Below, one piece after another: positions 1,401-49,713 of a DNA stretch of 64,000 nt. Each line of letters starts with the position of its first letter. The first letter of the stretch is position 1. Origin of the DNA: Trypanosoma brucei (lineage: Eukaryota). Made by a program: the position numbers and the translations under genes. The notes below the pieces were generated by a model that was not told the origin of the DNA, made no database searches, and saw only the letters and a list, made by a program, of their open reading frames with translations. The stretch spans positions 4,288,001-4,352,000 of the forward strand of contig CH464491.1 in NCBI GenBank assembly GCA_000002445.1, read 5' to 3'.

Positions 1401-1428
1401 TTCCTTCCTTCCTTCCTTCCTTCCTTTT
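1401..1428. repeat. (TTCC)7 microsatellite
   Basis: ttccttccttccttccttccttcc seen directly. Confidence 0.95.
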
Positions 1429-2150: not shown

Positions 2151-2156
2151 ACACAA

Positions 2157-2193
<37 letters not shown>
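2151..2193. repeat. Compound (CA)n(TA)n microsatellite
   Basis: acacaaacacacacacacacacacatatatatatatatatata seen directly. Confidence 0.95.
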
Positions 2194-2829: not shown

Positions 2830-3126
2830 CTATTGTGTCTTGGGCCGCTTGAATAGTAACACATGCGGCTCTGGGGCATGCAACATGTAGTGCCGCCATC
2901 CCACCGACTGCTGGACGCCAAGTTGACGCCACTCCGACTCCTCCATTAAACGGCCACGCGGAACCAGCCGTGAGAAGTCCTTCGGTAAAATGACATGGCG
3001 GTACTCATATTCATCATCGTAGTACTTGTCACTGTAAAGAATCTTTGATTGCAATTTGCTGATCATCATTCGTGCCTGTTCACGCTGAACGGGGTCGGTG
3101 ATGGAGAAGTAGTCCCGGCCAGACAT
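2830..3126 (-). CDS. CKS1: Cyclin-dependent kinase regulatory subunit CKS1 (suc1/p13 family), 98 aa from the internal Met
   Basis: Translation contains [19 protein letters not shown] and [29 protein letters not shown], the hallmark CKS motifs. The ORF as given (2830..3234) has a 36-aa N-terminal extension that is probably 5'UTR. The preferred start is the ATG at 3124-3126 (MSGRDYF). Confidence 0.85.
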
Positions 3127-14617: not shown

Positions 14618-17600
14618 GGCAACTTCAACTAAACCCTATGCGATTCCTTCTCTTTTTGTTTCTCTTACGGCTCACGCGCAAGCGAACGGGCCCACAGAGC
14701 GTATTTCTTTTTATTTCCCTCCACTGATGAAGTTACTTCTTCGGTGATTGCGGCGGAGGCGCTGGTCCACAGGTGTACACAGTAAACCGCGTTGCAAAAA
14801 GAGGAGGCCGCAGAAGGGGGGAGGGAAAGAAAGGAATAAGAACACAATGGCATGTTTTAGGAAGAAGAAACAAAAATAAATAAAAAAATAAATAGGAGCA
14901 GCAAAGAAGCACCACTAATGAAATCCAAACACACGAGCACAACGAAGCAGCACAAATGGGAAGTGACGCATGCACGGAGAGTTTGTATATATATATATAT
15001 ATACGTGCTTTGGCGGAACAATTTGTTGTTTCACTTGAAAATCTGGTGAAGCTCAATACAGAGAGGAGATGGAAAAGTATTCTTGAAGTGAAAGAAAGAG
15101 ATTTGAAAAAACAAAAAAAACGAGAATAAGGAGAAGGGACACGCACTTCATACAACAACATGATGCACTGAACACACACGACCACGTGCACCTGCAGTTA
15201 CTTCGCCCTTCTCCTCCTCTTCCTCCTCTACAATGAGTTGAAACGTAACAGTCACGCAACGAATGGGGGGGGGGAATTCACCGTGAGTAATCACACGTTA
15301 TGAAGGAGGGAGGGAGGGGGGGGGGCGGAGGAAATCCACGTACCTCAAAACACGTACCAAATAGAAAAAGAAAAGAAAAAGAAAGGGGGAGATCAACATC
15401 GACATTAAATCAACAACAACATCGACAACGACAACAACAAAAGAGCGACAGAACAACAGGACATAAAAAAAAAAAAGTAAGGTCTTCTCTAATTGAGCTA
15501 CACGTATAATAGACATGAAATGAACCTTCATATCTCCTCTTTGACCCCTGCCCCACTATCAAAAATAAATAGATTTCAAACCTCTCCCCTCTCCCTTCTT
15601 TTTCTTCCCCCTTTTTCTAACTCTCATTATCCCGTTCCTCTTCATCCACCTTAGTGATTCGCCCTTCTCGCATTGATTATCATTGTTATCCTCTTTCTTC
15701 CTGTTTCTGTTTCTGTTTCCCTTTTCCTTTTTTTTTTTTGATGCCTCCCCTCGAGAACCGCGTTTTAATTACCGATTCCCTCTCTTTTCTTTAACTCTTA
15801 TCTTTCTTTTGTTTTTCTTCTCTATTATTATTATTATTATTATATTTTTCCCCCTTTGGCCCGCACGCTCTCTTTCTAGAGAAGGGACCAACTTGATAGG
15901 GAGGAGGAAGAAGAGAAGGTCATGGGAAAACAACACACGGCAGAAAATTACCTTCCATGGCGAAATGAAAGGTACAAATAAGTCGGTAAAAATAAAACAA
16001 ACCATTTGCGAAATCGCTTTACTCTTATCACCCAGTGAAATGCACACAAGCGCATATGGACAAATGTACGCTGAGAAATAAACACCGCCAGCAGTGCTGT
16101 AAACTTAATCACTATTTTTTTTTCATTTTAATTACCTTCCTTTTCATCTATCTCACTTCATTCATTTCCCCCGTACACTTTTTGACTTCTCTTTCTCTTT
16201 CTACATTTTTAATGTTGTTACACCTGCTCTCATATTTTTATTCCCTTTTCTTTCTTGTAGTTTCCTCCATACACACACACGCACTCCCACCTAACTCCTT
16301 TATTTCTTTTCTTTTACTTCCCTCTTTTTCTTTTTTTCTCCCTCCTCCCCATCTTCTTCCCACCAGCGGCTTGTTTCCCTCTAACTCATGTGTCGCGATC
16401 CCCCCACACAAAAAAAAAAACTTTTCCTTCTTTATTTCTTTTTTTTCTTTCTTCGCCCCTCACAAAACCAACACACTCACAAAACGCCGGATATTAAACC
16501 CCACCCCGCCTCTCTCAGCGCAAAATACATCATTACCGGCTCAGTGACTACTCATTATTTATATATATATAGAGAGAGAGGGAGAGAGGGTAAAACTAAA
16601 TACAAGAGAGGGATGGAAAAAAGAAAAAAAAAGAAAGGAGGAGTGACTTTGAAAAAAAAATTTCCATCCCATCAACATCCTCTTCACTTGCCCTCTTTTT
16701 TTTTTCGTTTCGTTTCGCTTCGTTTCGTTTTTTTTTTGAAAAATTATTCCTCCTCCTCCTCCTTCCACCACACTCCACCACTTCCCTATTTTTTTTTCTT
16801 TCTTCTTTTCTTTTACTTGTTCCACTTTTTGGCTTTGTTTTATTTTGTCTTATATTTATCTCTTTTTTTTTGTTTTTTTTGTTTTTTTTGCAGTTTGTTT
16901 TGTTTTTATTCCCGCTTTTGTCCCCTTTCCATCTCTTTTTTTTTTTCATATAATAACAAACACACCTAACATAAACACAACCAGAGACGCTTAGTAACTG
17001 GCAGTTATACAAAATATAAACAAATATATAGATTTATATTTATTTATATATATTCATATATATATGTATATATATATATATACATGTAAACAGGTGAATA
17101 GAAAAAGAACACGCGCTCTCCTTCTCTCCCCTTTTCTTCTTTTGCGGTGTGTTTTCCTCTTGGAAAGGATAAGATCAAAAACGGCATTTTTTAAAAAAAA
17201 TTTATTTTGTTTTTCTTGTTTTCCCCTGTGCTGCCCTTTCTTTTCAGTCTTTTTCATCCTTCATAAACTCCACTCAGCACGTAAAGGGATAAAATGAGAG
17301 CATATGCGAAAATGGGGGAAATCATTTATTCGCATTATTTATTTATTTTAATTTCCTTTTTTTTTTCCCTTCCCCTGCAGCCATAAAACCGATATCATCA
17401 CCTCAGTGTGAACAAAGTTGCTGAATGAACGCACACGCTGGCGTGCAGAAGAAAAAAAAAACAAAATCAACAAAGAATCACGGACAAGAAAAGCAAAAAA
17501 ATGGAACATGACATGCGCGGTAACAAAAAAGAAAAAAAGAAAAAAAAAGGAACATGGGAACATGTGAAGGGAAAGATAAGGAACTGTAATTGAAGTCAAC

Positions 17601-18131
17601 AGTAATGACGACAATACCAAAAGGAGAAACGCTTTGATTGATTGATTGTTTGTTTGTTTTTGAAAGTGAATGTGCGAAGAAACGAAATAAATACGTACAT
17701 ATGAACATGAAAGCGACGCCACACACAAGCATACATGATATATTTCCGAGGAAAAAGAAGCGAGAGTATGAGTGAACGCAGAGCAAAATAAGAAAAGGGC
17801 AGAAAAGCCGAGGAGGGAGTGACATTCTTCGCATAACCACTCACGCACCAGCAGCACGTGCTACAGGAGAAGAAAAAAAAATTTACAATCCTTCATGCCA
17901 TGAAGTAGGGATCCTACGACAAGCATAGGGAAGAAACGAGGGGGGGAGGGGAAATAATAATAATATTTGAGAAAAATCCAAAATCTACAGCCACCTAACC
18001 AACCATTTTATTCATCGCCAGTTGAACTTTCACCTATCTCCATCACACACATACACACACCCAAATGAGGGGGGGGGAAACAGCTTTTTTTTAAAAAAAC
18101 CACAACCAACGATATTCGTATCCCCGCAAAG
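14618..18131. repeat. 3.5-kb low-complexity intergenic spacer with pyrimidine-rich tracts, (GTTTC)n-like and (TA)n repeats and G-runs
   Basis: No credible ORF. Contains cgtttcgtttcgcttcgtttcgtttttttttt (about 16700-16735), (TA)n at 14985-15001 and 17070-17090, and G-rich elements at 15265-15330. Confidence 0.7.
15265..15330 (+). repeat. G-rich cluster: a G10 run plus GGAGGGAGGGAGGGGGGGGGGCGGAGG, a G-quadruplex-capable motif
   Basis: Seen directly. It has at least four G3+ tracts with short loops on the plus strand, which is the non-transcribed strand if the array is transcribed as minus. Confidence 0.8.
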
Positions 18132-34233: not shown

Positions 34234-34530
34234 TCACTTCGTGAGCTCCTGTATCACAACAAGCAAGAATTCCTCGTGGCATTTGATAATAATTTCGTTG
34301 TTGAGGGATCGTACTCGCACAGCATCAAGAGACTCATCCGCACTAAACAAAAGAGCAGCATCACGCGCGAGGTCGGCTGCCATGTTGCTGTACGCCACGG
34401 CACGGTTTCGATCCAAGTCTTGAAAACTATCACGGATTGGTTCACCGTTGCGGTTGCACACAACAGCGCCTGCAACACCTTTCGTATATGTAATGAGTTC
34501 CAGCACACTTTCCACGCGCTCACTCGTCAT
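34234..34530 (-). CDS. Dynein light chain roadblock/LC7 (Robl/LAMTOR-like fold), 99 aa
   Basis: MTSERVESVLELITYTKGVAGAVVCNRNGEPIRDSF...VRVRSLNNEIIIKCHEEFLLVVIQELTK aligns along its length with DYNLRB (…GVQGIIVVNTEGIPIKST…[28 protein letters not shown]). The ORF as given (to 34686) has a 52-aa Cys/Val-rich extension that is probably 5'UTR. Start chosen at the ATG at 34528-34530. Confidence 0.85.
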   Translation of the reverse strand: MTSERVESVLELITYTKGVAGAVVCNRNGEPIRDSFQDLDRNRAVAYSNMAADLARDAALLFSADESLDAVRVRSLNNEIIIKCHEEFLLVVIQELTK

Positions 34531-34599
34531 AATGACAGTTGACACGACTCTGCTGAATACAATTACGTATAAATATATGAATATGTGTTGGTATTCTAA

Positions 34600-34665
34600 T
34601 GCGTGGTGGCACACTAACAAACAAACAAACAAATAAACACAAACACACACACACACAACTTCAAT
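34600..34665 (-). promoter_or_regulatory. Candidate polypyrimidine tract and AG trans-splice acceptor region upstream of the roadblock gene
   Basis: On the minus strand the sequence reads GT/T-rich (ttgtgtgtgtgtgtgtttgtgtttatttgtttgtttgtt). AG dinucleotides follow about 60-100 nt upstream of the ATG at 34530. This is the usual kinetoplastid arrangement and is not experimentally mapped. Confidence 0.3.
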
Positions 34666-37600
34666 TTTGTTCAGTTTCACCCACACAGTTCCCTCTGCAA
34701 TAGGGAAAAAGGTGCAATCGGGTCTTGTATTTTAATTCCCCTTTGATCCGTTAATACGGATTTCGCTGCTTCTTTTATTTTTTTAAAAAATTAAAGTTCT
34801 GTCTCTTCCTTTGATTCCCTCAAGTTGTTTTTTTTGTTTGTTTGTTTCCCCTCCTTGAATCTTACTTTATGTAGTACCTTTCCATGGAGTTAAATGAGGA
34901 GTTTTTTTTAAATAAAAAAAAAGGAGAAGCGAGGAGCAAACAAACAAACGAAATAAGATTGATTCAGCCAAACCACATGATGCAAAAGGCACGTAATGGG
35001 AAAATATTACAACAATAATAAGGTAAAAAAATATATAAATATATAAGAAAGGATATGAATAATAATAATAATATGCTCATGCCAGTGATAATGCTGCAGA
35101 CACTTTGAGCACAACATTCTACATTGCTGTTTCTTTTCCTTTTTTTTTGTGTATGTGGGGCGGGGGTTTCCTTGTATTTTCCTTCTCTTTGTTGTTGTTG
35201 TTGCTTTTATGTTCTCCTCTTATATTTATTTTTCCTTCCTTTTTAATTCATTTTGAAGGGAAATAAAGAGGAAGTGTACTTTTCTCTTTTCGTTTCTTTT
35301 TGTTTTTTTTGTACAAACTTTTGTACCCACCAAAAACTAAAAAAAAACAAGGATTAAATAATACCCACCGGCATGAAGAACGATGCGCTACGCTGCTTTC
35401 TGATGCTTGTGTGTTCGTGTTGGTATATATATATATAAGAAAGTGGGAGGTGGTGGGACACTTTTTTTTTTGTGTGTGTGTATATATTCATTTTATTATT
35501 TCATTTGTGTATTTTTTTTGAAATTTTTTTAAATTTAATTTTTATTTTTCTATTTCATATTATATTTTATATCTCCTACAAGTGTGAGCGGCGCCGCTTT
35601 TAAATTTCCCCACACTCACAAACATATATTCCCATCTTTTATTGCACCATCATTATTATTATAATATACCGCCATTAACACAAACACCACCACCCTTCAC
35701 ACACTAGCGAGAAAACAAACAAACAAATATAAATATATAAATGTTTCTTTGTTTTATATTTATATATTTATCTATATATGCCTGTGCAAATAATAATATT
35801 TTTTGTTAAAAAAGGAAAAGGGAAGAGGAAAAGTATTTGTCAACGAGCGTAGGGACGAAAAAAAAAAAAAGAGGTACACAGGAATAAAATTTAAAAGGAA
35901 GAAAAAAATTCTGCAAGAAAAAAAAGGGGAAAGTAATAAAAACAACAACAACAATAATAATAATAATAGTACTAAAAAGAAAGGGAAGCGGAAGAAGGAA
36001 GAAGGAAGAATTTCGCATGAAAATGCAGAAGTTCAACACGAAACAAACCAAAGCAACCACAAAAAAAAAAGCAAGCCAAAGAGCGAATACATCAGAAAAA
36101 GAAAAAAGAAAGAGGAGAATTTAAATAATAACAGACGCACGCGTACCATAACGGGAAAAGAAAAAAAAATGAGAAAGCAAAGACACACATAACGTTTGTT
36201 GCGACATTTTGTTTTTTTTTCTTTTTTCTTCTTTTTGAAATAATAAACACTGATAGCAGCGGATAAAAGAAAAAGGAGGAATCCTTTTTTTATTGTTTGT
36301 TTGTTTGTTTTCCTCCCTTTTTAATTTAATTATTGGGGAGACGGAGCGAACTCTGATAGCCCCTACAAACGGCGATGTTGCAGAAATAAAAACCTTTTTT
36401 GTTTTTTTCTTTTCATTTTCTTCTTTTAGGTTTCCACTATATCTTCTCAAACCGTATGCAAAATAATTCTTTTCTTGGTCTTCTTCATTTCAGCGACATT
36501 TCTTCCACTTTTTTTTTCTTTTTGGCTTTTCTTTTTTATTTTATTGTATTTTATCTTTTTTCTGATTTCGCCTTTTTGTGTGTTTGTTTTATTATTGCTG
36601 CAGCAGGTAAGAAGAAGAGTGAACTGAGTAGAGTAGACATCACGACACAAAACGATAATAACAATAAAAACAACAATAATAATAATAATAATAAAACACC
36701 GAAGGCAACAACGCAAAGAAATGGAGAAGGGCAAAAAAAAAAAGTAAACACTGCGCAAACATCCCACCCATTCAAGCATCCAAAAAAAAAAAAAAACATA
36801 AATTTATACTCGTTTATATAAATAAATATATAAATATATTCTCTTTTTTTAAAAAAAAAACATTCTAATGATACGTGCCATCAAAGCATTTTCGTATATT
36901 TCTTATGCACAATGATATCATGACTTCAACTTTCAGTTGCAGGTGAATGTCATCTCCCCCTCTTTTTCTATCCTTTTTTTTTCCTATTATTATTATTCTA
37001 TTTTTTCACTTCACACACATATATATATATACATATACATATATTTGTATTGCCGCGTTTCATTTCACTCCTTTTCTTTTCTCTGCATCCTTTTTGTTGT
37101 TGTTGTTGTTTTCTTTTTCAATTTGATTTCTTCGGTAATTGTGTTTAACCGAAAGTAATGTAGGAATGAAAGAACGGATGAAAAAGAAGCCGGCAGTAAA
37201 GAAGAGGAAACACTCCACCGGCGATAACATGAACAATAATAATAATAATAATTTATAGCTAATAATAATAATAATATAACTATCGACAGATCTCAGGGAG
37301 AAACGGAGATAAAAAAGAAAAAGCGCAAAGAAAAAAAAGAAAGAAGGACGGGGAAGATCGATTTAGACATTATTATTATTATTATTATTTTGCACGGCGG
37401 CACGGTATACACCTTCAAAATGCACACATGTAACTTGACTATTGAAACAAAAAACAAATCAAAACAAAACAAAAAAAAAAGAACGCAATTCAGAATTCCA
37501 CCTCCTTCACTCAGTCAGTGGCTTTTATTTGTTATTATTATTTTTTTTTGCAGTTCTGTTGCTTTTTGGTTTTTTTTCTCTCTTTCTCTCTCTTTTCTCC

Positions 37601-38423
37601 TTCCTTTTTTAAAAAACATTTGCTCCTTTTAAGTACTTTTTGTTTAATTGCATTTGCTACTGAAGCCAATAAATTTTTCTTTTTTTTAAAAAAAATACTA
37701 CATAAGAAATAAAATATTCAAAACAAAAAATAAAATAATACAAAATAAAGACGACTTCACTTTCTTTTTTTTTCCCCCTCCTCCTCCTTCTCTCCCTTGT
37801 TCCGTCTTGATTTCCACAACAACAACAACGCAAAACTTAAAAACAAAAAAAACACTATCGGGAACCGTTTTCTTTTCTTTTCTTTTCTTTTCTTTCTTTC
37901 TTTTCGTTGTTATTGTTGTTTGTTGTAGTTGTTCTCTCCCTTCTTTTTGAGTTTTCGATTTCCTATTAATATCTCCCTTTTCCTTTTTCATTTCTTTTTT
38001 TAAAAAAAAACAGAAAAGGGAAATTAAAACACCCTCTCGTGTTGTCATTATTATTATTATTATTATTATTATTGTTACTACTACTGTCCCCTTCATAACA
38101 TCACCTCCTTTAAAAATTAAAGACACAAAAATGTCACTCGGCTTTTCTTGTGTTTATTTATTTATTTATTTTTTTCTCTTCTTTTCCTCTGTTACTGTTA
38201 CTTTTAGAAAATAGGAAAAAATGAAGGGAAAATTTGTTGTTGTTGTTTTTCAAAAAAAAAAAAAAGATTCTTTTATACTTCAGCAATTTGAAATATCCAC
38301 GATAATTCGCTTCCGTGGTTCATATTGATTTGTCTTCACATAAATAATTATGTTTATTTTGTAAGCGCTTCAGCGTGTAGACACGAGAGATGTACTCCTC
38401 ATCACGCTCATTCTTCACTTTAC

Positions 38424-38430
<7 letters not shown>

Positions 38431-38470
<40 letters not shown>
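38431..38470. repeat. (TA)20 microsatellite
   Basis: Perfect TA run seen directly. Confidence 0.95.
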
Positions 38471-38472
<2 letters not shown>

Positions 38473-38494
38473 CTTTAAAATAATTTCAGTCAAT

Positions 38495-38640
38495 TTTAAA
38501 CATTATTATTATCATTATTATTATTGTCATTATTATTATTACTGTTATGATTTATCACCACTCTGTAATAGTAGTAGTAGTGGTAGTAATAATAATAATG
38601 ATAATAATAATCATAATAATCATAATAATATTGATGTCAT
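38495..38640. repeat. Imperfect inverted repeat made of (ATT)n on one arm and (AAT)n on the other, with cruciform/hairpin potential
   Basis: Left arm cattattattatcattattattattgtcattattattattactgttatg. Right arm ctgtaatagtagtagtagtggtagtaataataataatgataataataatcataataatcataataata. The two arms are near reverse complements around the centre tcaccactc. Confidence 0.7.
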
Positions 38641-40242
38641 CGTCATTTGCCTTCAATTCCTGCACACTTATTCACTCACTTACTCATTTATTGTTTATAT
38701 CCTCCGGTACTCTCTGCTTCATCATATATATAAATACATAAATATTTAACTTTTTTTTCAAATATTTATATGTATTTGTGTGCATTTGCGTATGTGTGCA
38801 TTTGGGTGTTCGTGTTTACCGCCAGCTTTCAAATATAATATATATGCTACACATTTCCTTCCATTAATTCCTTTTGCTTTTGTCCCTTTTTTTTCTTTTT
38901 TTCCTTTCTTTTTTGCTGTCATTTTCTAAAGGGAAGAAATCAAAAAAAAATTGTTCGTCATTTCACCTGACCACTGATTTGATTTTGTATATTTTGATTT
39001 CATTATATATTTATATATGTTGTTTTCTTTGTTTTCTTTGTTTTTTTTTAGTAATGCATTTCCCTTGTATAAATATATATATATAAAGTAATTATAAGAA
39101 GAACAATCATAAACAAATAAATAAGCGATGAAAAGATATTATATTTCAAACCAACAGAAAAAGAAAAAAGGAAGAGGAAGAGGGAAATGAAAAGTGGAGA
39201 ACAGAAAGGTAAAGACAGAAGTAATAGAAAAATAGATATGAAACAAAGGGAAACAATAAACAACAAAAACAGTAGTGAATCGAAGAAAGAAAGTAAGTAA
39301 GAAAGGAAGGAAGGAAGGAAGGACAAGAAAAAAAAAAGAGGGGGAAAGGGAAAGCCAATCAATCAATAAATTAACAGTTAAAAATAATTATAAATAGTGA
39401 TTAAATAACAAAAAAAACAAAAAGAAACAGAAAATAAAAAGTTATATCATATCATATAATTTTATATAATAATGGTGGCGAAGACCCGGAGAAAAAAAAA
39501 CAAAAAAATTGAGAATGTGTCCAAAAAAGAAAAACCAAGAAAGGAAAGAAAAGGAAGGAATATCAAGTAAGGGAAACTTAAGTAAATAACACCTTCACTC
39601 ACCCACACCTTGAAGCACATCGAAGAGTCCAATAAACACATTAAATGCATAAATATAAATATAAAAATATATATACGTCTTTTGTTTTTTTTCTTCTTTC
39701 CTCTTTATTTGGTTGTTTGTTTATACGCTTACGTCCGTACACGCGCCTGTGTGAGGGTGTGTAATCTTTTTTTCTTTTTTTTAAAAAAATTATTCTTTCT
39801 TTCTCTTTCTCTTTCTCTCTCTCCCTTTCTTTTTCCCTACCCCCTCCTTTTAAACTTCTTTTTCTTTTTCTTTGTCTTATTGTTTTTGTTTTTGTCTTTG
39901 CTGTTGTTGTTGTTTTGTTGATTTTTTTTAAAAATTTTTTTCTTTATATTTATATTTACGTGTTTGTTGGACTCATATAAATATGTGTACATATATTTGG
40001 TGTGTGCTCGCATGTTTGCATGCATGCATGCGTGTGTTTGTGTTTGCGTGTAAATAACCCTTTTCCTTATTTTTCCTTCCTTCCTTTCTTTTTTTCTTTT
40101 TCTTTTCTATTCCAATTCTCATTTCTCTTAAAACTTCTCTGTTATTATTCTCGTCTTTTTTGTCTTTTGTCTTTTTCTTTTTTTTTTTAATTGGGCGCGT
40201 GTGTGTGTGGGGGTGGGGGGAAGTAAATCCAGGAAATTAAAA

Positions 40243-40245
<3 letters not shown>

Positions 40246-40282
<37 letters not shown>
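40246..40282. repeat. (TA)18 microsatellite preceded by a (GT)n/G-run
   Basis: gtgtgtgtgggggtgggggg ... followed by (ta)n, seen directly. Confidence 0.95.
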
Positions 40283-40283
<1 letters not shown>

Positions 40284-42221
40284 TTTTTTTTATTTTTCTT
40301 CTTTCGGTTTACTTTTTCGTCGTTTTTATTTCTTTTCGTTTCGTTTTCTCCTTACTTCCTCTGTTAACAATAATAATGATGATAACAATAGTGACTATAA
40401 TAATAATAATAACAACAATATTAAAAATAATGGTAATAGTAATAACAATAATAATAATAATAGTAACAGTAATATAAGTCACACACACACAAAAAAAAAG
40501 ATTATAAAAGAAAAAAACAGAAAGGAGAGGAGAGGAGAAAAAAGGAAAGAAAAAGTCACACTACAAAAAAAAAAGAAAGGGGAAATAAAGAAGAGAGAGA
40601 GAGACAAAAATGAAAAAGGGTCGATCACCCGTGGGAGGAACGTGTAAATTAAATAATAATTGCCGTATCTTACAGATGTACATATGACACACACACAAAA
40701 AAAAAAAGAAAGTACAAAACAAAAATATATTTATATCAATTCTTTATTTATTTTAAATTTTTATTTTATTTCTACAAGAAAGGTCAACACAAGAGAATGG
40801 AGTAATCGTAACGAAAATGCTAAAATCTAAAAAAAAAATTCTCCCTCCCCTCCACACCATACCAAAACAACGAAGAAAAAAACTAAACTAAAACAACAAG
40901 AATAAAAATAAAAATAAAAAAAAAGATAAATTAAAAAAAATTTAAAAAAAACATAATAATAAAAAGACATGAAAAATCAGAAGGGAAGGAGGCAACACAC
41001 CAACAAGTAAATAAAATATGCCATAAATAAAATGTGATGTGGCCTCGGATTCCGCACGCTCACTAAATATAAATATTTATATATTTATTATTATTATATA
41101 TATATTTATATATTCTCTCATCAAACCCCTCCTCCACTTGCTTCTTTTTTTTTATTCTTTTTATTCCTTTCCTTTCTTCCTGCGTTATGGGATTACACCC
41201 GCATCTCTCACAAAAGAAAAAAGAAAAATAAAGAAAAAAAGAAACCCGACAACAACAACAAAAAAAACACACATTTCTCTGCCCGTGTTAATTCGGCACG
41301 CCTTTCACTCCCTCCAATTTCCACCCTCTTTGTTTCCTATAATATATTCATTTTATTTATTCATTTTATTTTATTTTTTGCCTATCCGTCCGTGTTCCTT
41401 TCTTTTCTTTTTTCTATTTTCTTATATTTCTTTTGTGTGGACTCCCGCACGCGAAGAGGGCACAAAATATTTCTCACTCGCCACAATCTCCAAACCCTCA
41501 AACTAAAGAGAAGGGAGGGGAAAAACAAAAAAAGTAGAGAAGTAAAACAAAAAGAAACCATCCCCCAAAGCGTCAGCTATCATATAAATAAATATATAAA
41601 TATATATAAATATATAAATATAAATAAATATATATTTATATAATTTCCTATTCCTTCTTTTAATCTTCTACAAAACTGAAAATGTACGTTTTTTTTTTTC
41701 CCTCCCCACACTTTTTTTGTTGTCTAATAATCATTTCGCTGCTTTACAGCTTCACTACATAATAAACAACAACAATATACTTCACAAACAACACAATAAC
41801 CAAAGAAAAGTAAATAGTAACAGACAAAACAAAACAAAACAAAAGCATCATTGGAACCCTTTCAAAGGTGGTCAGTTATTTTAATAAATTCATTCATTTA
41901 TTTATTTCATTTATTTTCCTTTCCTTTTTTTTTTTTACCCCTCATCTATTTCTTTTATTTTATTTTCTTCCTTTTTTTTTTATTCCCCCCTTTTTAATTC
42001 CTTTTTCATCCCTTGTTTAGTTTTTTGTCTTTCCTTTCCTTTTCCTCCTTCATTCCCTAATTGTTTCTGAAGTTGATCATGAACCCCATCAAAACAGGGA
42101 AATTGAGATGCACTTTTTTCTTCTTTTTTAAAAAACAAAACAAAACAAAAACAATAATTTAAAGAAAGAAGAAGAAAAACGTAAAGGAAGAAAAAAGAAG
42201 AAAATGATAATGATGATTATA

Positions 42222-42252
<31 letters not shown>

Positions 42253-43351
42253 TATTCAAAAATGAAATAGGAGGAAAAGACACTAAACAAAAAAAAGTAA
42301 AGGAACTTGAAAAGTGAGATAAAACAATAAATAAAAGCAAAACGAAAAAAAAAACAAGAACAAAAGGACGAAAAAAAAATGGCAATGAAAGGGATTGGGA
42401 TGAAAAAGAAAAAAAGAAAAAACAAAAACAGAAACAAAACAATACAGTAAAAGATAATGATAATGATGAAGCGCTCGGCGTGTTAAAGTGCAACAATAAA
42501 AAAAAAACAAAAACGGTTCAGTGGACGGAAAAGTCGAAGGTTACTGGAAACAAAAAGCGTAGACGGGAAGGGGAAGAGAGAAGCAGAGTTAGAGGAAATA
42601 AATAAAACAAAACAAAAAAGTTTTTATATTCTTCTTTTATTATTATTATTATCTCCTTTACAATAATACTAATAATAAATAAAATAAATGAATAAAATGA
42701 TAACAACGGAGAAGAACGTAAAAGAGGAGCAACAAAGCGGAAGCAAACGAACAGACACACTGATGGAAAAATATGATGAAATATTTTTTGAAAAAAAAAA
42801 GGAAAAGAAAGGTAAAGTAAGATTGGGGGACTAAGCACACACACAAACAAACATGAATAAACATATAAAACTAAATATATAACCAAATATATAAATATTT
42901 ATGTGCTCACTCAATATCCCCCTTTATTTTGTCTTTTTCAGTATCATTATCATTATTTTATTTTATTTATTTATTTATTCTCCCCCTTCTTTTCCTTTTT
43001 TTTATATTTCCCATCTTATTTTTCTTTCTTCCATTTTGTTCGCTACATCATTTCATTTCACTCTTTACGTTATCTCTCTCCATCTCTTTCTCTCTCCTTC
43101 TCTCTCGTTGTTCTTCCTGCATCACAACTATTTTCAGTTTCTTTTTTTTTTGCTTTTTTTTGATTTTGTTGCTGTTGTTATTTTCTCTCCCATCTCCCTT
43201 TCTTTTTTTTTCTTTTAAAAAAAAAGCAAAAAAAAGTTTTTTTTTCCCCTTCCTCCAAATGATCCGATCAACGCACAAACGCACAAACACACACTTCGCT
43301 GTTGAATCATTCCCTCCCTCCCCAAAGAAAAAAAAACAAAAAACAAAAAGA

Positions 43352-43412
43352 AGCTCACTCACTCACTCACTCACTCACACGCACGCACACACACATATAT
43401 ATATATATATAT
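43352..43412. repeat. Compound (CTCA)n-(CA)n-(TA)n microsatellite
   Basis: gctcactcactcactcactcactcacacgcacgcacacacacatatatatatatatatatatac seen directly. Confidence 0.9.
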
Positions 43413-46400
43413 ATACACCATTCACATATTCAAACAAAAAACGAATGAAAACAAAACAAGAAAAAAAAGGTAAATAAAATTAAATTAAAGTAGGAAAAAA
43501 AACAAAAAAAATTGACGCCACAACAATTTGTTGAAGCAAACGAAGAGGGGAAAAATATGAAAAATGGACAAAGGAAAAGGGCAGCAGCAGCAGCAGCACC
43601 CGCTGCTGGTGCCACACACAAATTCACTCATTTGTTCAATCACTCATATCATTAAATACGTATATTATATATATCTACATATATGACAGAACACATTTAC
43701 GCAATAGTAATAGTAATAATAATAATAATTATTATTATAGTAATAATATATAGATATATTTACTTATGGAAATATATATATATATATATATATATATCAA
43801 ACGCAGCAAGAAAGCGGATGGTATTTAGTATTGGAGCCATACCGCCTCATTCCTCAGGCTTCTCACCTCCTTTATTTTTTTCTTCTCTTCTCACTTGTGC
43901 CTCGTTTTTTCTTTCTTCTTTTCTTTTCTCTCAAGTTTGTTTTCTGCTGCTTACACAAAAATGGATGTAATGCGTATAAGCAACCGCACAACAAACCAAA
44001 CAAACAAACAAAAGAGTTAGAGGAAAGGTTACAAGTGATGATAATAATAATAATAACAATAAGGGAAGAAGAGAGACCCAAAAACAAAATAAAACAAAAC
44101 ATTGAGCAAATGGAAATAATAATAATAATATTATATAAATTATATATATATATATATATATACAATATAAATAAATATATATACATATATAAATATATAT
44201 AATTATAACAATAAAACAAGACGGAAAAACGCAGTGAAACATGAAATGTAGTTACAGAAAGAAAACCAAACAAGCAAACATATAAAAAAAAAGAAAAAAG
44301 AAAGAGAGGGGGAAAAGGAAATCAGAAGACACATCAACACTCCGCCAAAGTACGAAGAATACGGAGCATACAGATAATATATAAATATATATAAATATAC
44401 ATATGTATATAACATAATAGAAAGAACATAAAAACGAAAGAAAAAAAAACGACGGTCAATCACCAATCAAAACGTCAAATTGATCCCGAACGGAACAAAG
44501 TTGTGGGGAACGCGAAAACAAAAAAAAACACCCACAAAAAAGACGTGGCGGTGGTGGTGGTGGTGGCGGAAACTCAAAAACGAAAAAAAAAGGAAAAGAG
44601 TGAACCGAGCCGCAGGAGACAAATATCAGGACAAGAAAAAAAAAACACCAACCCACACATATGCCTAAAAGCGTCAAGGGAAGAAGTGGCCATCAGAACT
44701 GATAACAATAAAAAAAAAACAATTGATGAAAAGAAAAGTAAATGACAGATTTGACGACGACAACAACAATAACAAGTAAACAATAATAATGATCACCATT
44801 ATCATCATTTATATCATCACAATGCCACAACAACAAAAAAAAACAAAATCACGGAAACTCATCCCTTCTCTCTCTCTCCCCCTCCCACTCGCCTTTTGTT
44901 TCTTTTTGAACTTTATTGTCGCTGTTTCATTTATTTCTTCCTCTTGATTCGTATTTATTTATATAAAAGAAAAACCATTGCTTCCTCGGACTCCCACACG
45001 AAACAGCCTTTAAAACAAAACAAAAGAGCGCTAACAGAGAAAGTCAGAAGGCAAAGAAAGAAAGAAAAAACAAGTCAGGCACACAAATATGTAATTAAGT
45101 ATAAATTTATAAATATAAATCTCCACCACAACGCAAAAGATAAATATCAAGATTATATATATAAATAATATAGTTTTTACATATAATTTTAAATTAATTA
45201 TGGCGTAATGAGGGGACCTGAAATATCCAAAAACATTGAGAACGAAATCCACAGGAAAGTATACTGAAACCCAGTAGAGAAAGGGGAAAAGAAAGGAGGT
45301 AAAAAAAAAAAACACACACACTTACAACCAGAGTGTCAGAACCTTAAATATAATTAAATATGGTTTAATAGGGGGCAAATATAAGTAAATATAAGTAAAT
45401 ACATATAATACATATGCACCATATGTATAGATGTGTCATTATTAGCTAAAAGGCGGGAAATACACAATCACAAACACAATCACAATCACAATCACACACG
45501 CAATATAATAACAATAATGATGGTAATGGAAGAATTCATACGTAAATGTATGAAGGGACCATAACATGAAAAGAAAGAGAAAAGAAGGAGGAAGAAAAAC
45601 AAACAAATAAAAACGCAAAACATAATCAAAAAAAGGAAGGAGGTATTTTTCTTTTTCATCTTCGTGTCTTTACTGAATTTTTTTTAGATTGCTTTGATTC
45701 TTTAACCTTGTTTTTTTTACCTTATTCTTTGTACTCAGGAGGTGGGGACGGGGGGGGGATATCTCCCGCGAAGCAAATTGAATGATGATAATGATAATGA
45801 TGATAATGATATGGCAAAGCAATTAGTGCCGGGGTTGCGTGGGGCAAGTTTTAGAGGGATATGAGGAGAAGGAGAAAATAAAGAGGGGAAAGGGGGGAAA
45901 TGAAAACAGCAAACACAAACACAGGAGCCTATTTATGTATTCATTTTATTTGCTTATCCATTCATTCATTCATATTCAATCCTTCATTCGGTCGCAAAAG
46001 AGAGGTGCACGCATGCGCTAATGTATTCAACATGTTGGTGCAAAATATATCAAGCGAAAGAAAAATAGTACAAAAAATGAGGGAGGAACTAAAGGAAAAC
46101 AGAAATGGGCTGGCACGCGAGTTTTTCGAATAGGGCAAAGTGTAAAGGGAAAGGGAAAGGAACAGACAGGTACGCGCGCGCCCATGCATTTAAATCACGC
46201 GCACAGGAGCCCTCCACCCGCCTCATATTATTATTTTTTTCTTTTTTTTAATCACCCCATCCACCCACACCCCAAAGACGAGGGGAAATTTCCTTGTATT
46301 TTTTTCTTTTTTCCTTTCCTTCTTCTTTTTTTTTTCTCTTATCTCCTCTCCTCTTTTCCTTCTTTCACCCTCTCCTCTCCCCTCCCCTGTCACGCCCTGT

Positions 46401-48180
46401 AATTGTCAATGCCATTATTATCACATTGTCATTAGCTCATTCAGTTATTTTATTTCACTATTGGTTAGGTTTGATATTTTGTTATTCTTTTTTTAAATTT
46501 TTTTTTGCTTTCCCTCTTCCCCTCCCCCCTCTCCCCTCTCCGTTTCTTTCTCTTTCTTTACTTTACTCTCCTTTCCTTCTTTTTGAAACTCCTTTTTTTT
46601 AAATATAATTTTTTCTTTCTTTTTCTTTGCTTTGTTTTTGTTTTTTCAGAGGGAAAGTTGGATCAAACTTTTTTTCTCTGTGACTGGCGTTGTTTGTGTT
46701 GTTCTATTATCATTATCATTATTATAATCATTCATTTTCATTTTTTCCCCTTCCTCTTTTTTTTGTCTTTTTTCTTCTTTTTTTTCCTTTTTCTTCTGTT
46801 ACCTTTTTATTATTTTATTTTTTTTGTTATTTTTTATTTTATTTTATTTTATTTTTTGAGCGTTACTGTCCTTTTTTCTTTGTTGTTGCTGGGTTCCAAA
46901 AATTCGGCGAGTACTCCAACAACAATAACAATAAATAACAACACGGAGGGAAGTGAGAAGGAAGCCACACACATATATGTATAAACATAAGCACAAACGC
47001 ACGCAAACACACAAAAACGAACAAAAAAAAAGCAAAGGAAGGAAGGAAAGAGACACTAAAATGTCTGAACTTCCACAAGTGACAAAACAAATACGGGAAC
47101 GGAAAAACGAAAGAAAAAAAAAGGAAAGAGAAAACAAAAACAAAATAAAATAATAAAATAGTAAAAGATACGCACAATGAAAAAAAAAAAGTACAACATA
47201 CATACTTTTATAACTCCCTCCACAAATGCACATGACCACTAGCCACGACCACGTGCACACAAAAGAAAAAAAAAGGAAAAGGGAAAAGGAACAAGGAAGA
47301 ACCAGAGGGAAAAGGGAAAAAAAAAGAACAACAACACACTTTTCCAATGTGTTTCTCATAATATATATATATATATTCATATTTATATTTATTTATTTAT
47401 ACCTACAAATATATAAATATAGGTGTGTCTGTGCATTTGTGTCTATGTTCATATATGTGTTCATTCATTCATTTCCCCCTTGTTTTTCCTTCCTTTCCTT
47501 TCCTTTCCTTTCTTCTCCCTTTTTTTCTTTTTCCTCCTCCCCCTCTTCTGTTAGTCTATTTCAAATATTAGGTTTTTGGGTTTGTCCTTCCCCTATTTCT
47601 TCCCTCGCTTCCACAGCTCGTTGGAAACATGCGGTCTCACCATTTTGTATTGGTCATCAGTATTTTACTTCGTATGGTGTGTCGCAGCCTCTTTCGTTTT
47701 GATCATTTCACTTATATCGAGTCTTTCTTTTTGATGTGTGTATGTGTGCGTGTGTGCATGAGTTCGATTCTTCTCTCCCATTCGACGGGAATGTATGGGC
47801 TCAGTCATCTTTTCTTTTCCTTTTTTTTCGTGATTACTTTTTCCTTTCGTCTTCATGCTTCAATTTATGACCCATACATACACATAAACAAACAAACACA
47901 CACACACACACACACGGACACATGATTTGCTCCGCCTAAAGCGCTACATCGACATCACTTTACTTCTTCTCTTCGCTGTTTCCACGCTTTGCTCTCTCTC
48001 TCTTTTTCTCTCTCGATCTCTCTTTTTCAATCCTACGACTGCTCCAAATACTTCAACCGTTTTCTTCGCTAACCGCTAGTTTCTTTTCTTCTGATCGTTC
48101 CTTTTCACGTCATGCATTTCCCCCCCCCCCAACACACACACACATTCTTCCACTTACCATCACCTGCTTTCAGTTGACTT

Positions 48181-49713
48181 TTACACATATGTAAGCAACA
48201 GCGGCGAGATGACGTAGTCGGAGGCGGAACTGCGTTGGTTAACAGGCTGCCGCGACACCTCAGGTCCCGGGAGCTGTGAAGCCTCCGGGTGCTGCTGCCG
48301 CTGCGTAAAGTATGGAGAAGAAGGGCTTAATGGCATCGCCGGCATCTCCGCCGGAGAGTTGTTCGTATATGAAGTCGGTCGCGAGGTGTAGACGGGCTCA
48401 AACGAATACCCCTGAGACGCATTCAACACACGAGATTGTTGTTGTTGTTGTAAGTGGGGCGGATGATGGTGGTGGTGGTGGTGATGATGATGCGTTTGCT
48501 GTTGTTGTTGTTGCTGCTGAAATGAGTTGTGGTGATGTTTGTAAGACGGGCCCGGTGGCACTACGAGTGGACCTCTACCTTGTTGCATTGGGCCACAACT
48601 ACCGAAGGAAACAGGTCCCGCTGCATGTTGTTGGTGCAGCGGCAGGTTGTTGGTCATATAACCACTGGAACCGCCATGCGGAGATCCCGCCTGTTGATGC
48701 TGTTGCCGATAGCCACCGCGGCTCTGGTACGGGTGCCCGCCCATGTGTTGGGAATGCCCACTTAGGCCGCCGTGGGGATGGGGGTGGGAACGATGCATCT
48801 GCTGAAGCTGTTGTGGGTGAAGGTGGCCGTGGCCTCCACCGCCTCCGTAACCACCCCTGTAGGCCGAGTTGTATTGCTGCCGCTGCGACCGCATCGAGTG
48901 GCCTTGAGACGGCATTTGGGGGGAACGCGTGTTCAAATGAACACGGTGAATAAAGTTACACAAACTTCCACGCCCACACCTTTCGCGTTCGTAATGCTTG
49001 CAAAACCGGAGATATTTCGTGGAGTCACTGTGTTGAGCCTCCTCGCTGCCCTTCGTACGGTAGACTTGCTCTGAAGGCACTTGCACCGGGTTCGCTGCTC
49101 CGCCTCGCAAAGAGTGACCCGCGTTGATGTAAAAAACTGAGCCTGGTTCATGTCGCTCGTATGGTGCTTCTTCCAATAAGGCAACAGGTGTGGACCAGTG
49201 AACCAGATTGACAGTCACAGGCAAGTCACCGTCACGAGGTTCTGCAAAGGTGTGCCGACTGTGGATGAAGTCACAACGGTCCCCGTGGGCACACGAGGCA
49301 TTGGTGGAAAAGGATTTGCAAAGGTATAGTGCGTAACTCGGCTCCTTTGTACCTCTGTTTCGTGACAAATAGTTTTTCGACCCAGAAGTAGTCTCGATGA
49401 ATTCGGACGGGATACACAGCGCTTTGTTCTTGTCAGCACTCAGCACGTGGAAGCGGCGGTCGTGCTGACCCGACTCATTGGCATCGATATTATCCCCATC
49501 AGTACCCTTGTCAGGGGCCACTAATTCTGTTGGCGCCTCGAGTGGTTCCTTCTGCGGTTTGCTGCTACTGCACCTACTGTTGCTCCCGCTCCCAGGAAGT
49601 ACCTTGGTGAAACAACTTTCAGGTCGATCCGTGTTAGGCAGCACAGGGGAAAGAATGTCTAACCCCGCCTGCTGCTCCTGTGGCGAGCCCAAAGAGTCCT
49701 TCGCTTCACTCAT
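48181..49713 (-). CDS. CCCH-type zinc-finger protein (two C-x7/8-C-x5-C-x3-H fingers) with a long Q/H/G/Y-rich low-complexity C-terminal half
   Basis: CKSFSTNASCAHGDRCDFIH and CKHYERERCGRGSLCNFIH are CCCH fingers. The C-terminus has poly-Q, poly-H (HHHHHHHHHH) and GGYGGGGG runs. The ORF extends to 49809. The preferred start is MSEAKDSLG at 49711-49713. Confidence 0.7.
   Translation of the reverse strand: MSEAKDSLGSPQEQQAGLDILSPVLPNTDRPESCFTKVLPGSGSNSRCSSSKPQKEPLEAPTELVAPDKGTDGDNIDANESGQHDRRFHVLSADKNKALCIPSEFIETTSGSKNYLSRNRGTKEPSYALYLCKSFSTNASCAHGDRCDFIHSRHTFAEPRDGDLPVTVNLVHWSTPVALLEEAPYERHEPGSVFYINAGHSLRGGAANPVQVPSEQVYRTKGSEEAQHSDSTKYLRFCKHYERERCGRGSLCNFIHRVHLNTRSPQMPSQGHSMRSQRQQYNSAYRGGYGGGGGHGHLHPQQLQQMHRSHPHPHGGLSGHSQHMGGHPYQSRGGYRQQHQQAGSPHGGSSGYMTNNLPLHQQHAAGPVSFGSCGPMQQGRGPLVVPPGPSYKHHHNSFQQQQQQQQTHHHHHHHHHHPPHLQQQQQSRVLNASQGYSFEPVYTSRPTSYTNNSPAEMPAMPLSPSSPYFTQRQQHPEASQLPGPEVSRQPVNQRSSASDYVISPLLLTYV

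What the first reader, a model, noticed from the sequence alone, without database searches (positions are those of the whole stretch)
34531..48180. 13.6-kb gene-free low-complexity desert embedded inside a co-directional gene array
All flanking genes, from the roadblock gene at 34.2 kb to the CCCH protein at 48.2 kb, are on the minus strand. This is therefore not a strand-switch region, yet it is roughly ten times longer than the other intergenic spacers in the window (0.3-3.5 kb). It has no ORF of normal composition. It is built from alternating A-rich and T-rich strand-skewed blocks of about 300-800 bp, so local composition skew flips polarity more than ten times. It also contains many (AAT)n/(ATT)n, (TA)n and homopolymer runs. 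The first possibility is an exceptionally long 3'UTR of the upstream CCCH zinc-finger gene together with the 5' region of the roadblock gene. The second is a non-transcribed or terminating island inside the unit, for example a degenerate centromere-like or former strand-switch region, or a base-J/H3.V termination site. The third is a replication-origin or fragile AT-rich island. Long regulatory 3'UTRs are documented for trypanosome RNA-binding protein genes, but 13 kb would be extreme.
Basis: partly seen in the sequence, partly recalled or inferred. Interest (0 to 1): 0.6.

Follow-up and report, generated by a model that had tools for sequence, protein, structure and literature searches.

The report
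Giant 3'UTR of trypanosome ZC3H46 gene
The 13.65-kb "gene desert" is real, but two-thirds of it is the already-annotated 9-kb 3' untranslated region of the Trypanosoma brucei RNA-binding-protein gene ZC3H46, and the rest looks like more transcribed non-coding spacer, so it is an extreme example of a known kind.

Summary
The window is Trypanosoma brucei TREU927 chromosome 11. The flanking genes are roadblock/LC7 (Tb927.11.16540) and the CCCH protein ZC3H46 (Tb927.11.16550).

- The spacer is 13,650 bp with 30.5% GC. Other spacers in the window are 132-3,514 bp with 38-48% GC.
- It has 25 alternating purine-rich and pyrimidine-rich blocks.
- It contains only microsatellites. I found no conserved ORF, Pfam domain, Rfam RNA, tRNA or dispersed repeat.
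- It is not an assembly artefact. A PacBio assembly of another strain is collinear through it and gives about 13.7 kb.

Published annotation (Trenaman et al. 2024) already assigns an 8,957-nt 3'UTR to ZC3H46, which maps to window ~39224-48180. The same paper describes A-rich polypurine and U-rich polypyrimidine tracts as the building material of long T. brucei 3'UTRs.

The annotated UTR end lies 159 nt upstream of the first AG after the longest AG-free pyrimidine block in the window (511 nt). That is a classic coupled polyadenylation and trans-splicing signal. I infer that the remaining ~4.2 kb is a separate non-coding transcript or a UTR extension, followed by the roadblock 5'UTR.

The spacer is the longest local one in every species examined: T. 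cruzi 2.2-2.5 kb, T. theileri 3.1 kb, T. vivax 5.4 kb. It is expanded in T. brucei. Centromere features are absent.

Verdict: already known, low interest.

The parts
48181..49713 (-). CDS of ZC3H46 (Tb927.11.16550), a CCCH zinc-finger protein of 510 aa
   Evidence: Pfam zf-CCCH. Exact match to EAN80600/XP_829712/Q381D1. The gene ID and the 1533-nt CDS length come from supplementary tables of PMC5568443.
39224..48180 (-). Annotated 3'UTR of ZC3H46 (8,957 nt), made of alternating U-rich pyrimidine and A-rich purine low-complexity blocks
   Evidence: The UTR is given as Tb927_11_v5.1:4386491-4395447 in Supplementary Data 1 of PMC11405848. Three other genes give window offsets of 4347267-4347270, so the mapping is good to about 3 nt. 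The segment holds 34 polypyrimidine and 39 polypurine tracts of at least 15 nt.
45700..46300 (-). Island of higher GC (39-46%) and more complex sequence inside the UTR; function unknown
   Evidence: Composition profile. Sequence and ORFs. No ORF above 77 aa, and no match in the T. vivax, T. cruzi or T. theileri spacers.
39064..39576 (-). 511-nt AG-free block, 77% pyrimidine, ending at the AG at 39065/39064. Predicted coupled poly(A)/trans-splice signal that ends the annotated ZC3H46 UTR
   Evidence: It is the longest AG-free stretch on the transcribed strand of the whole window, and I read the sequence directly. The annotated UTR end (~39224) is 159 nt upstream of the AG. The Tb927.11.16470 UTR end has the same geometry, at 150 nt. 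The last polypyrimidine tract, 39209-39156, is predicted to be mostly unpaired, with 0.17 of its bases paired.
34880..39063 (-). About 4.2 kb of non-coding spacer not covered by the annotated ZC3H46 UTR. Inferred to be a trans-spliced non-coding RNA or RNAs and/or the distal part of longer ZC3H46 isoforms
   Evidence: It has the same composition and tract density as the annotated UTR. It has no conserved ORF, Pfam or Rfam hit. It is not among the novel nanopore lncRNAs listed for chromosome 11. An internal candidate acceptor is the AG at 35973, after a 247-nt AG-free stretch.
34878..35075 (-). 196-nt AG-free, pyrimidine-rich stretch ending at the AG at 34879/34878. Predicted trans-splice acceptor of the roadblock mRNA
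   Evidence: One search places the AG 349 nt upstream of the roadblock ATG. Polypyrimidine tract at 34936-34914.
34531..34877 (-). Predicted 5'UTR of the roadblock mRNA
   Evidence: Inferred from the acceptor prediction.
34234..34530 (-). CDS of the roadblock/LC7 dynein light chain (Tb927.11.16540), 98 aa
   Evidence: Pfam Robl_LC7. Exact match to EAN80599/Q381D2. Gene ID and the 297-nt length.

Best explanation
The tract is transcribed, non-coding inter-CDS sequence inside an RNA polymerase II polycistronic unit of T. brucei chromosome 11.

**Layout.**
- About 9.0 kb of it (window ~39224-48180) is the 3'UTR of ZC3H46, a developmentally regulated CCCH RNA-binding-protein gene. The mRNA would be roughly 10.5-11 kb.
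- The UTR ends where the strongest polypyrimidine, AG-free signal in the window directs polyadenylation of the upstream RNA and spliced-leader addition at the AG at 39065.
- The next ~4.2 kb is either released as non-coding RNA or retained in rarer, longer ZC3H46 isoforms.
- The roadblock mRNA is then spliced at about 34879.

**Mechanism.** The alternating U-rich polypyrimidine and A-rich polypurine blocks are the usual low-complexity material of long T. brucei 3'UTRs. They serve as binding platforms for RNA-binding proteins that set translation and stability in a stage-specific way. Their many internal polypyrimidine tracts are potential cryptic splice/poly(A) signals, and these must be kept silent, for example by DRBD18 or DRBD3.

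**Shown versus inferred.**
- Shown: coordinates, composition, absence of genes, assembly validity, synteny, and the published UTR annotation.
- Inferred: use of the 39065 acceptor, the fate of the distal 4.2 kb, and the regulatory role of the tracts for this particular gene.
For: **Identity and annotation.**
- Locus and gene identities.
- Published UTR annotation of 8,957 nt for Tb927.11.16550. The same paper reports a mean 3'UTR of 622 nt and a median of 388 nt. It also reports that A-rich polypurine and U-rich polypyrimidine tracts make up long UTRs and are enriched in mRNAs that are translationally up-regulated in bloodstream forms.

**Sequence architecture.**
- The tract has 25 alternating blocks, with 51 polypyrimidine and 57 polypurine tracts of at least 15 nt. 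That is about 4 per kb of each, against 0-0.9 per kb in CDS.
- The same architecture is present in the 3.2-kb annotated UTR of Tb927.11.16470 (window 14.9-18.1 kb).
- The annotated UTR end sits 159 nt upstream of the AG that closes the longest AG-free pyrimidine block in the window.

**Synteny and evolution.**
- ZC3H46 followed by roadblock, on the same strand with no called gene between them, is conserved in every species examined.
- It is also the longest local spacer in each: T. cruzi 2.2-2.5 kb, T. theileri 3.1 kb, T. vivax 5.4 kb.
- Between Trypanozoon strains, substitutions occur at about the rate of other spacers and indels at 2.5-3.5 times that rate, as expected for non-coding microsatellite-rich sequence.

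**Regulation in the literature.**
- ZC3H46 is regulated largely beyond the mRNA level. Late-procyclic SILAC ratios are 8.8-33 fold against 1-3 fold for RNA. [quoted passage not shown]
- Internal polypyrimidine tracts in long UTRs are normally unused. DRBD18 or DRBD3 loss activates them.
Against: - I could not inspect RNA-seq, spliced-leader or poly(A) reads, so the UTR extent rests on a published manual annotation.
- The distal 4.7 kb (34531-39223) has no annotation that I could find.
- The two MPRA fragments from this UTR were not significant positive regulators (FDR 0.37 and 0.15), so no direct functional evidence exists for this UTR.
- No sequence element is conserved with the T. vivax, T. 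cruzi or T. theileri spacers. Any regulation would have to act through composition and short motifs.
Confidence: 0.8

Rival explanations
1. The tract, or its distal 4.7 kb, is a head-to-tail boundary inside a same-strand gene array. Pol II would terminate there (H3.V/base J) and re-initiate (H2A.Z/H4K10ac) before the roadblock gene.
For: The tract is unusually long and gene-free. The distal 4.7 kb is not covered by the published UTR annotation. From general knowledge, T. brucei does have some internal, non-strand-switch transcription start sites.
Against: Nine kb is annotated as a continuous 3'UTR. The distal part has the same composition and tract density as the annotated UTR. The break at 39.2 kb has the geometry of an ordinary coupled poly(A)/trans-splice site. 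There is no tRNA or other Pol III gene, which from general knowledge often mark internal boundaries. The same gene order without any boundary is kept in T. cruzi with only 2.2-2.5 kb between the genes.
Confidence: 0.06
2. The tract is an AT-rich replication origin or a fragile, R-loop-prone or H-DNA-prone island. This could coexist with its being a UTR.
For: The tract is 69.5% AT, with long homopurine/homopyrimidine tracts and (TA)n runs. Indel rates are elevated between strains. Two short-read or Sanger assemblies break inside it.
Against: From general knowledge, mapped T. brucei origins coincide with transcription-unit boundaries, whereas this locus is internal to a unit. Overall length is stable between TREU927 (13,650 bp) and IVM-t1 (~13,737 bp). 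I have no positive evidence, because ORC/MFA-seq and DRIP-seq data are not available here.
Confidence: 0.05
3. The tract is a degenerate centromere-like region or a relic of a former strand-switch region.
For: It is AT-rich and gene-free.
Against: T. brucei centromeres are tandem arrays of AT-rich repeats (147-bp units on chromosome 11). They lie between directional gene clusters and carry retroelements. Here no tandem array has a period above 49 bp. There are no dispersed or complex repeats and no retroelement-like ORF. There is no strand switch, and synteny without a switch is conserved in four other trypanosomes.
Confidence: 0.01
4. The tract hides unannotated protein-coding genes, or it is an assembly artefact.
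For: The T. b. gambiense DAL972 assembly shows two genes (CBH18740, CBH18741) between ZC3H46 and roadblock. The T. equiperdum OVI assembly breaks inside the tract.
Against: The gambiense genes lie on a 4.3-kb contig bounded by 100-N gaps on both sides, replacing window 40181-42410. The gap-free PacBio assembly of T. b. equiperdum IVM-t1 is collinear with TREU927 across the whole tract, at ~13.7 kb. Tests for Pfam hits, conserved ORFs and Rfam or tRNA genes were all negative.
Confidence: 0.02

Closest known systems
Long regulatory 3'UTRs of T. brucei RNA-binding-protein mRNAs: RBP10 (long 3'UTR of roughly 7 kb by my recollection), DRBD12 (mRNA ~8.4 kb), Tb927.1.1500 (annotated UTR 7.86 kb)
   Same: It lies downstream of an RNA-binding-protein gene inside a polycistronic unit. 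It is many kb long and AT-rich. It carries numerous internal polypyrimidine tracts that are potential cryptic splice/poly(A) signals, and the encoded protein is developmentally regulated.
   Different: At 8,957 nt annotated, it is longer than the comparators whose lengths I could check: the 7.86-kb annotated UTR of Tb927.1.1500 and the ~8.4-kb whole DRBD12 mRNA. A further 4.7 kb of similar sequence follows before the next gene. No functional dissection of this UTR was found, and its two MPRA fragments were not significant.
Poly-purine / poly-pyrimidine low-complexity UTR architecture described by Trenaman et al. 2024 (PMC11405848)
   Same: A-rich polypurine and U-rich polypyrimidine tracts occur in similar proportions, as that paper reports for longer 3'UTRs. 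Here both are at about 4 per kb.
   Different: Here the tracts are grouped into 25 large alternating blocks, 70-1,503 bp long. The orthologous spacers of T. vivax, T. cruzi and T. theileri are almost only pyrimidine-rich on the transcribed strand.
UTR-embedded or intergenic lncRNAs of T. brucei (KS17gene set, grumpy)
   Same: The distal 4.2 kb is non-coding and lies between a poly(A) site and the next gene's acceptor. A strong polypyrimidine tract and AG precede it. Published work states that many lncRNAs are segments of long UTRs, and that UTRs often extend beyond their annotation.
   Different: I could not find a lncRNA annotation for this interval. It is not among the novel nanopore lncRNAs of chromosome 11. 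The Guegan et al. tables are not held as text.
T. brucei centromeric AT-rich repeat domains
   Same: AT-rich and gene-free.
   Different: There is no 147-bp or ~30-bp tandem array and no retroelements. The tract is not between divergent or convergent gene clusters.

Membership tests
Long 3'UTR within a trypanosome Pol II polycistronic unit | Lies directly downstream of a CDS, on the same strand as both neighbouring genes | tested here: met
   ZC3H46, the tract and roadblock are all on the minus strand.
Long 3'UTR within a trypanosome Pol II polycistronic unit | Transcript evidence or annotation from the stop codon to a poly(A) site | tested here: met
   Met by look-up only. The UTR is given as 4386491-4395447 for Tb927.11.16550 in PMC11405848 Supplementary Data 1. 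This covers window ~39224-48180 and not 34531-39223. I did not inspect reads.
Long 3'UTR within a trypanosome Pol II polycistronic unit | The poly(A) site lies roughly 100-200 nt upstream of a polypyrimidine tract / AG trans-splice acceptor | tested here: met
   The annotated end (39224) is 159 nt upstream of the AG at 39065, which closes a 511-nt AG-free, 77%-pyrimidine block.
Long 3'UTR within a trypanosome Pol II polycistronic unit | No protein-coding or structured-RNA gene inside | tested here: met
Long 3'UTR within a trypanosome Pol II polycistronic unit | The UTR controls expression of its mRNA (stability or translation) | not testable with these tools
   Only indirect evidence exists: ZC3H46 protein and RNA levels are discordant. 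The MPRA fragments were not significant.
T. brucei centromere | Array of AT-rich tandem repeats (147-bp unit on chromosome 11) | tested here: not met
   The TRF maximum period is 49 bp with 2 copies. Definition from PMC1868937.
T. brucei centromere | Located between directional gene clusters, with retroelements | tested here: not met
   All genes are on the minus strand. There are no complex repeats.
T. brucei centromere | Topoisomerase-II cleavage or KKT binding | not testable with these tools
   No such data are available here.
Transcription-unit boundary (strand-switch or head-to-tail termination/initiation site) | Change of coding strand | tested here: not met
   Same-strand synteny is conserved in other species.
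Transcription-unit boundary (strand-switch or head-to-tail termination/initiation site) | H2A.Z/H4K10ac (start) or H3.V/base J (stop) enrichment | not testable with these tools
   No ChIP data are available. A text search for the neighbouring gene IDs found nothing relevant.
Replication origin | ORC1/CDC6 binding and an MFA-seq peak | not testable with these tools
   No such data are available.
Independent trans-spliced lncRNA (distal 34880-39063) | Own spliced-leader acceptor and poly(A) site, and no coding potential | tested here: inconclusive
   A strong predicted acceptor is present and there is no coding potential. I found no read evidence or annotation.
Assembly artefact / collapsed repeat | Absent or different in independent long-read assemblies | tested here: not met
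   The PacBio assembly CM010682 (T. b. equiperdum IVM-t1) is collinear, has no Ns and gives ~13,737 bp.

The most novel reading that the evidence does not exclude
The T. brucei lineage expanded this spacer 2.5-6 fold by adding A-rich polypurine blocks next to pre-existing U-rich blocks. The resulting neighbouring complementary blocks would pair in the RNA into very long, imperfect A-U hairpins, often with (UA)n at the apex. Those hairpins would hide the internal polypyrimidine tracts from the trans-splicing machinery, which would allow a 9-kb (or longer) UTR to survive. The one large block that stays unpaired (39.2 kb) would define the processing site, and the 4.2 kb beyond it would be an independent lncRNA.

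The hints are weak:
- One 981-nt segment folds with a z-score of -4.7 against dinucleotide shuffles.
- Internal UTR tracts have a median of 0.83 of their bases predicted paired, against 0.51 for tracts close to a CDS start. That difference gives p = 0.065 with n = 8 versus 58.
- Orthologous spacers in other species lack the purine blocks.
Probability: 0.12. Interest if true: 0.5.

Novelty: already known. Interest (0 to 1): 0.2.

Why it matters
The finding shows that a raw-sequence "gene desert" inside a trypanosome transcription unit can simply be one giant regulatory UTR. For trypanosome biology the locus is a useful extreme case. Its 9-kb UTR is about 14 times the mean length, and it has some 34 internal polypyrimidine tracts that must all be ignored by the splicing machinery. 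It is followed by 4 kb of unassigned transcribed spacer. That makes it a good substrate for studying how cryptic splice/poly(A) sites are suppressed (DRBD18, DRBD3) and how low-complexity UTRs expand between species. It does not reveal a new kind of element.

Tried and rejected
- **Rfam.** No match at gathering threshold over the whole window, and none at E <= 0.1 over the tract. ARAGORN found no tRNA.
- **Pfam.** The eight longest ORFs in the tract gave only sub-threshold compositional hits.
- **Conserved sequence.** BLASTN and TBLASTN of the tract and its 78 ORFs against the T. vivax, T. cruzi and T. theileri spacers gave only scattered low-complexity matches. None were collinear, and no ORF was conserved.
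- **Repeats.** The self dot-plot by BLAST and the repeat finder found only microsatellite or compositional "families" at 60-70% identity. I saw no evidence that the blocks arose by recent duplication or inversion.
- **Bacterial promoter/terminator scan.** This is irrelevant for a eukaryote and the counts were close to the shuffle expectation.
- **T. b. gambiense genes in the interval.** I rejected these as a gap-flanked contig placement.
- **Literature look-ups that yielded nothing.**
  - UniProt IDs were not found.
  - Supplements of PMC9380746, PMC9200285 and PMC11260167 are not held as text.
  - The nanopore lncRNA table has no entry in this interval.
  - The neighbouring gene IDs are not discussed in any chromatin or replication paper.
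- **T. congolense.** The orthologue was not retrievable.
- **Folding.** RNAplfold over the whole window timed out. I replaced it with per-tract MFE folds, whose result was inconclusive.
- **DRBD3 supplement.** ZC3H46 is listed with logFC 1.83 in one of the knock-down tables, but I could not tell which table, so I did not use it.

Full report
**Identity of the locus.** Four proteins encoded in the window match, residue for residue, proteins of Trypanosoma brucei brucei TREU927 on a 5.26-Mb record, which is chromosome 11. The CCCH protein is EAN80600/Q381D1 and the roadblock protein is EAN80599/Q381D2. These are consecutive accessions, so nothing is annotated between them in that record. Supplementary tables of PMC5568443 give the current IDs. 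Tb927.11.16540 is the Roadblock/LC7 protein with a 297-nt CDS. Tb927.11.16550 is ZC3H46 with a 1533-nt CDS, exactly window 48181-49713. Tb927.11.16560 is the CMP-sialic acid transporter and Tb927.11.16480 is the enoyl-CoA hydratase. These fit the Pfam results for the window ORFs.

- All credible genes are on the minus strand.
- The spacer is 13,650 bp at 30.5% GC. The other 19 spacers are 132-3,514 bp at 38-48% GC, and CDS are at 52%.
- The purine/pyrimidine skew forms 25 alternating blocks of 70-1,503 bp, with 63% of the tract strongly skewed. Mononucleotide shuffles give 1.3 blocks on average and 6 at most.
- TRF finds many microsatellites but no tandem array with a period above 49 bp.
- With low-complexity masking, BLAST of the tract against the window gives no non-self hit. 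The repeat finder returns only compositional "families" at 60-70% identity.
- ORFs of up to 182 aa are low-complexity, with no Pfam hit above cut-off.
- There are no tRNAs and no Rfam matches, even at E <= 0.1.

**It is not an assembly artefact.** The gap-free PacBio assembly of T. b. equiperdum IVM-t1 (CM010682) is collinear with the window from 59.7 kb to 30.0 kb. It gives ~13,737 bp between the two CDS. T. equiperdum OVI has a contig break near window 46.76 kb. T. b. gambiense DAL972 appears to have two genes in the interval, CBH18741 (a 675-aa coiled-coil protein) and CBH18740 (a 452-aa "fragment"). Both lie on a 4.3-kb contig bounded on each side by 100-N gaps, replacing window 40181-42410. 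I read this as a scaffolding placement, not as genes in the tract.

**What it is.** Supplementary Data 1 of Trenaman et al. 2024 (PMC11405848) lists the UTR of Tb927.11.16550 as Tb927_11_v5.1:4386491-4395447 on the minus strand, which is 8,957 nt. Three other genes in the same table give window offsets of 4347267-4347270. The UTR therefore maps to window ~39224-48180, to within about 3 nt.

The same paper reports the following:
- After re-annotation, the mean 3'UTR is 622 nt and the median is 388 nt.
- A-rich polypurine tracts and U-rich polypyrimidine tracts are the abundant low-complexity material of T. brucei 3'UTRs. They occur in similar proportions in long UTRs.
- Both tract types are enriched in mRNAs that are translationally up-regulated in bloodstream forms.

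On the transcribed strand I count 51 polypyrimidine and 57 polypurine tracts of at least 15 nt, about 4 per kb of each. CDS have 0-0.9 per kb. The second-longest spacer in the window (14.6-18.1 kb) is largely the annotated 3.2-kb UTR of Tb927.11.16470. It has the same architecture.

**The end of the annotated UTR.** On the transcribed strand, window 39576 to 39065 is a 511-nt stretch with no AG dinucleotide and 77% pyrimidine. It is the longest such stretch in the 64-kb window (sequence read). The annotated UTR end (39224) lies 159 nt upstream of the AG at 39065/39064. At the Tb927.11.16470 UTR end the corresponding distance is 150 nt (14913 to the AG at 14763), and there the AG is 146 nt upstream of the next start codon.

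In trypanosomes, polyadenylation sites are defined by the downstream trans-splicing signal (PMC9380746 abstract). I therefore infer that 39065 is a used spliced-leader acceptor. The ~4.2 kb from there to the roadblock acceptor region has the same composition as the annotated UTR. That region is an AG-free stretch from 35075 to 34879, with its AG 349 nt upstream of the ATG. The 4.2 kb contains nothing coding. It is either an independent non-coding RNA or RNAs, or the distal part of longer ZC3H46 isoforms. Published work notes that many T. brucei lncRNAs are segments of long UTRs and that UTRs often extend beyond their annotated ends. I found no annotation for this interval.

**Comparative evidence.** The order ZC3H46, spacer, roadblock, on one strand with no called gene between, is conserved. 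The spacer is 2.2-2.5 kb in T. cruzi, 3.1 kb in T. theileri and 5.4 kb in T. vivax. In T. theileri the roadblock gene is not called but tblastn finds it. In each species this is the longest spacer in the 20-kb neighbourhood. A long UTR on this gene is therefore ancestral, and the T. brucei lineage expanded it 2.5-6 fold.

In the other species the spacer is almost only pyrimidine-rich on the transcribed strand. The purine-rich fraction is 0-7% there, against 31% in T. brucei. No collinear sequence or ORF conservation is detectable. Between Trypanozoon strains the tract accumulates substitutions at about the rate of other spacers and indels at 2.5-3.5 times that rate. This is consistent with weakly constrained, microsatellite-rich non-coding DNA.

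**How it probably works.** ZC3H46 is developmentally regulated, largely beyond mRNA abundance:
- Late-procyclic SILAC ratios are 8.8-33 fold, with RNA at 1-3 fold.
- The mRNA changes in the RBP10 regulatory cascade.

A very long UTR rich in polypurine and polypyrimidine tracts is the known platform for such control. Its internal polypyrimidine tracts are potential cryptic processing sites that are normally unused. DRBD18 and DRBD3 are reported to suppress such sites. For this particular UTR there is no direct functional evidence, because its two MPRA fragments were not significant.

**Rivals.**
- *Centromere-like.* The defining 147-bp AT-rich tandem arrays between directional clusters, with retroelements, are absent.
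- *Internal termination/initiation boundary, or origin.* These cannot be excluded without ChIP or MFA-seq data. Several observations argue against them: the annotated continuous UTR, the ordinary processing-site geometry, the absence of tRNA genes, and the compact syntenic arrangement in T. cruzi.
- *Hidden genes or an assembly artefact.* Tested and rejected, as described above.

**An exploratory idea.** Neighbouring U-rich and A-rich blocks are complementary. The segment 39900-40880 folds at -195.9 kcal/mol, against -165.8 +/- 6.4 for shuffles (z = -4.7), with (UA)n at the apex. In 1-kb MFE folds, polypyrimidine tracts inside the ZC3H46 UTR have a median of 0.83 of their bases paired. Tracts within 400 nt of a CDS start have a median of 0.51. 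The tract just before the 39065 acceptor has 0.17 paired. The overall contrast is not significant (Mann-Whitney p = 0.065, n = 8 versus 58) and it is confounded by local composition. I record it only as the most novel reading that the evidence does not exclude.

**Verdict.** The element is an extreme but already annotated example of a described class. Interest is low.

Noticed in passing
L011:9676-14157 (T. b. gambiense DAL972, FN554974); corresponds to window 40181-42410: A 4.3-kb contig carries a 675-aa coiled-coil gene (CBH18741) and a 452-aa partial gene (CBH18740). It sits inside the tract between two 100-N gaps. Neither gene has a TREU927 member in its 90% identity cluster. A T. equiperdum fragment of the first gene lies on a separate 27-kb contig. 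This is probably a misplaced contig.
   Followed up: partly
L011:~2300-3900 (T. b. gambiense): No gene is called at the ZC3H46 position in the DAL972 locus, although the DNA aligns to the window at 96.9%. This may be a frameshift, a pseudogene or an annotation omission.
   Followed up: no
window ~46758-46780: The T. equiperdum OVI assembly breaks into two contigs (CZPT02000791 and CZPT02000727) inside the T-rich run at 46.75-46.86 kb. OVI also has several short N runs elsewhere in the tract.
   Followed up: partly
window 14618-18131: The second-longest spacer is largely the annotated 3.2-kb 3'UTR of Tb927.11.16470. It has the same alternating purine/pyrimidine block architecture and a lower GC (38%).
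   Followed up: yes
window 45700-46300: An island of higher GC (up to 46%) and normal sequence complexity lies inside the UTR. It has no ORF above 77 aa and no cross-species match. It could be a specific regulatory element or a relic.
   Followed up: partly
window 1055-4457: A 3.4-kb spacer contains several minus-strand ORFs of 130-170 aa (1255-1776, 2450-2932, 2830-3234). I did not evaluate them, so the spacer may contain small genes or be another long UTR.
   Followed up: no
L007:14460-14729 (T. theileri): The roadblock orthologue (79% identity over 90 aa by tblastn) is present but not called as a gene in that assembly.
   Followed up: yes
window 35973-36220 and 35808-36177: A second strong candidate acceptor lies in the distal segment. 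It has a 247-nt AG-free stretch ending at the AG at 35973, and two polypyrimidine tracts predicted to be almost fully unpaired (0.00 and 0.04 of bases paired).
   Followed up: no
whole window versus Tb927_11_v5.1: Offsets between window and published v5.1 coordinates differ by 1-3 nt between genes (4347267-4347270). This suggests small indel differences between sequence versions, or different coordinate conventions.
   Followed up: no
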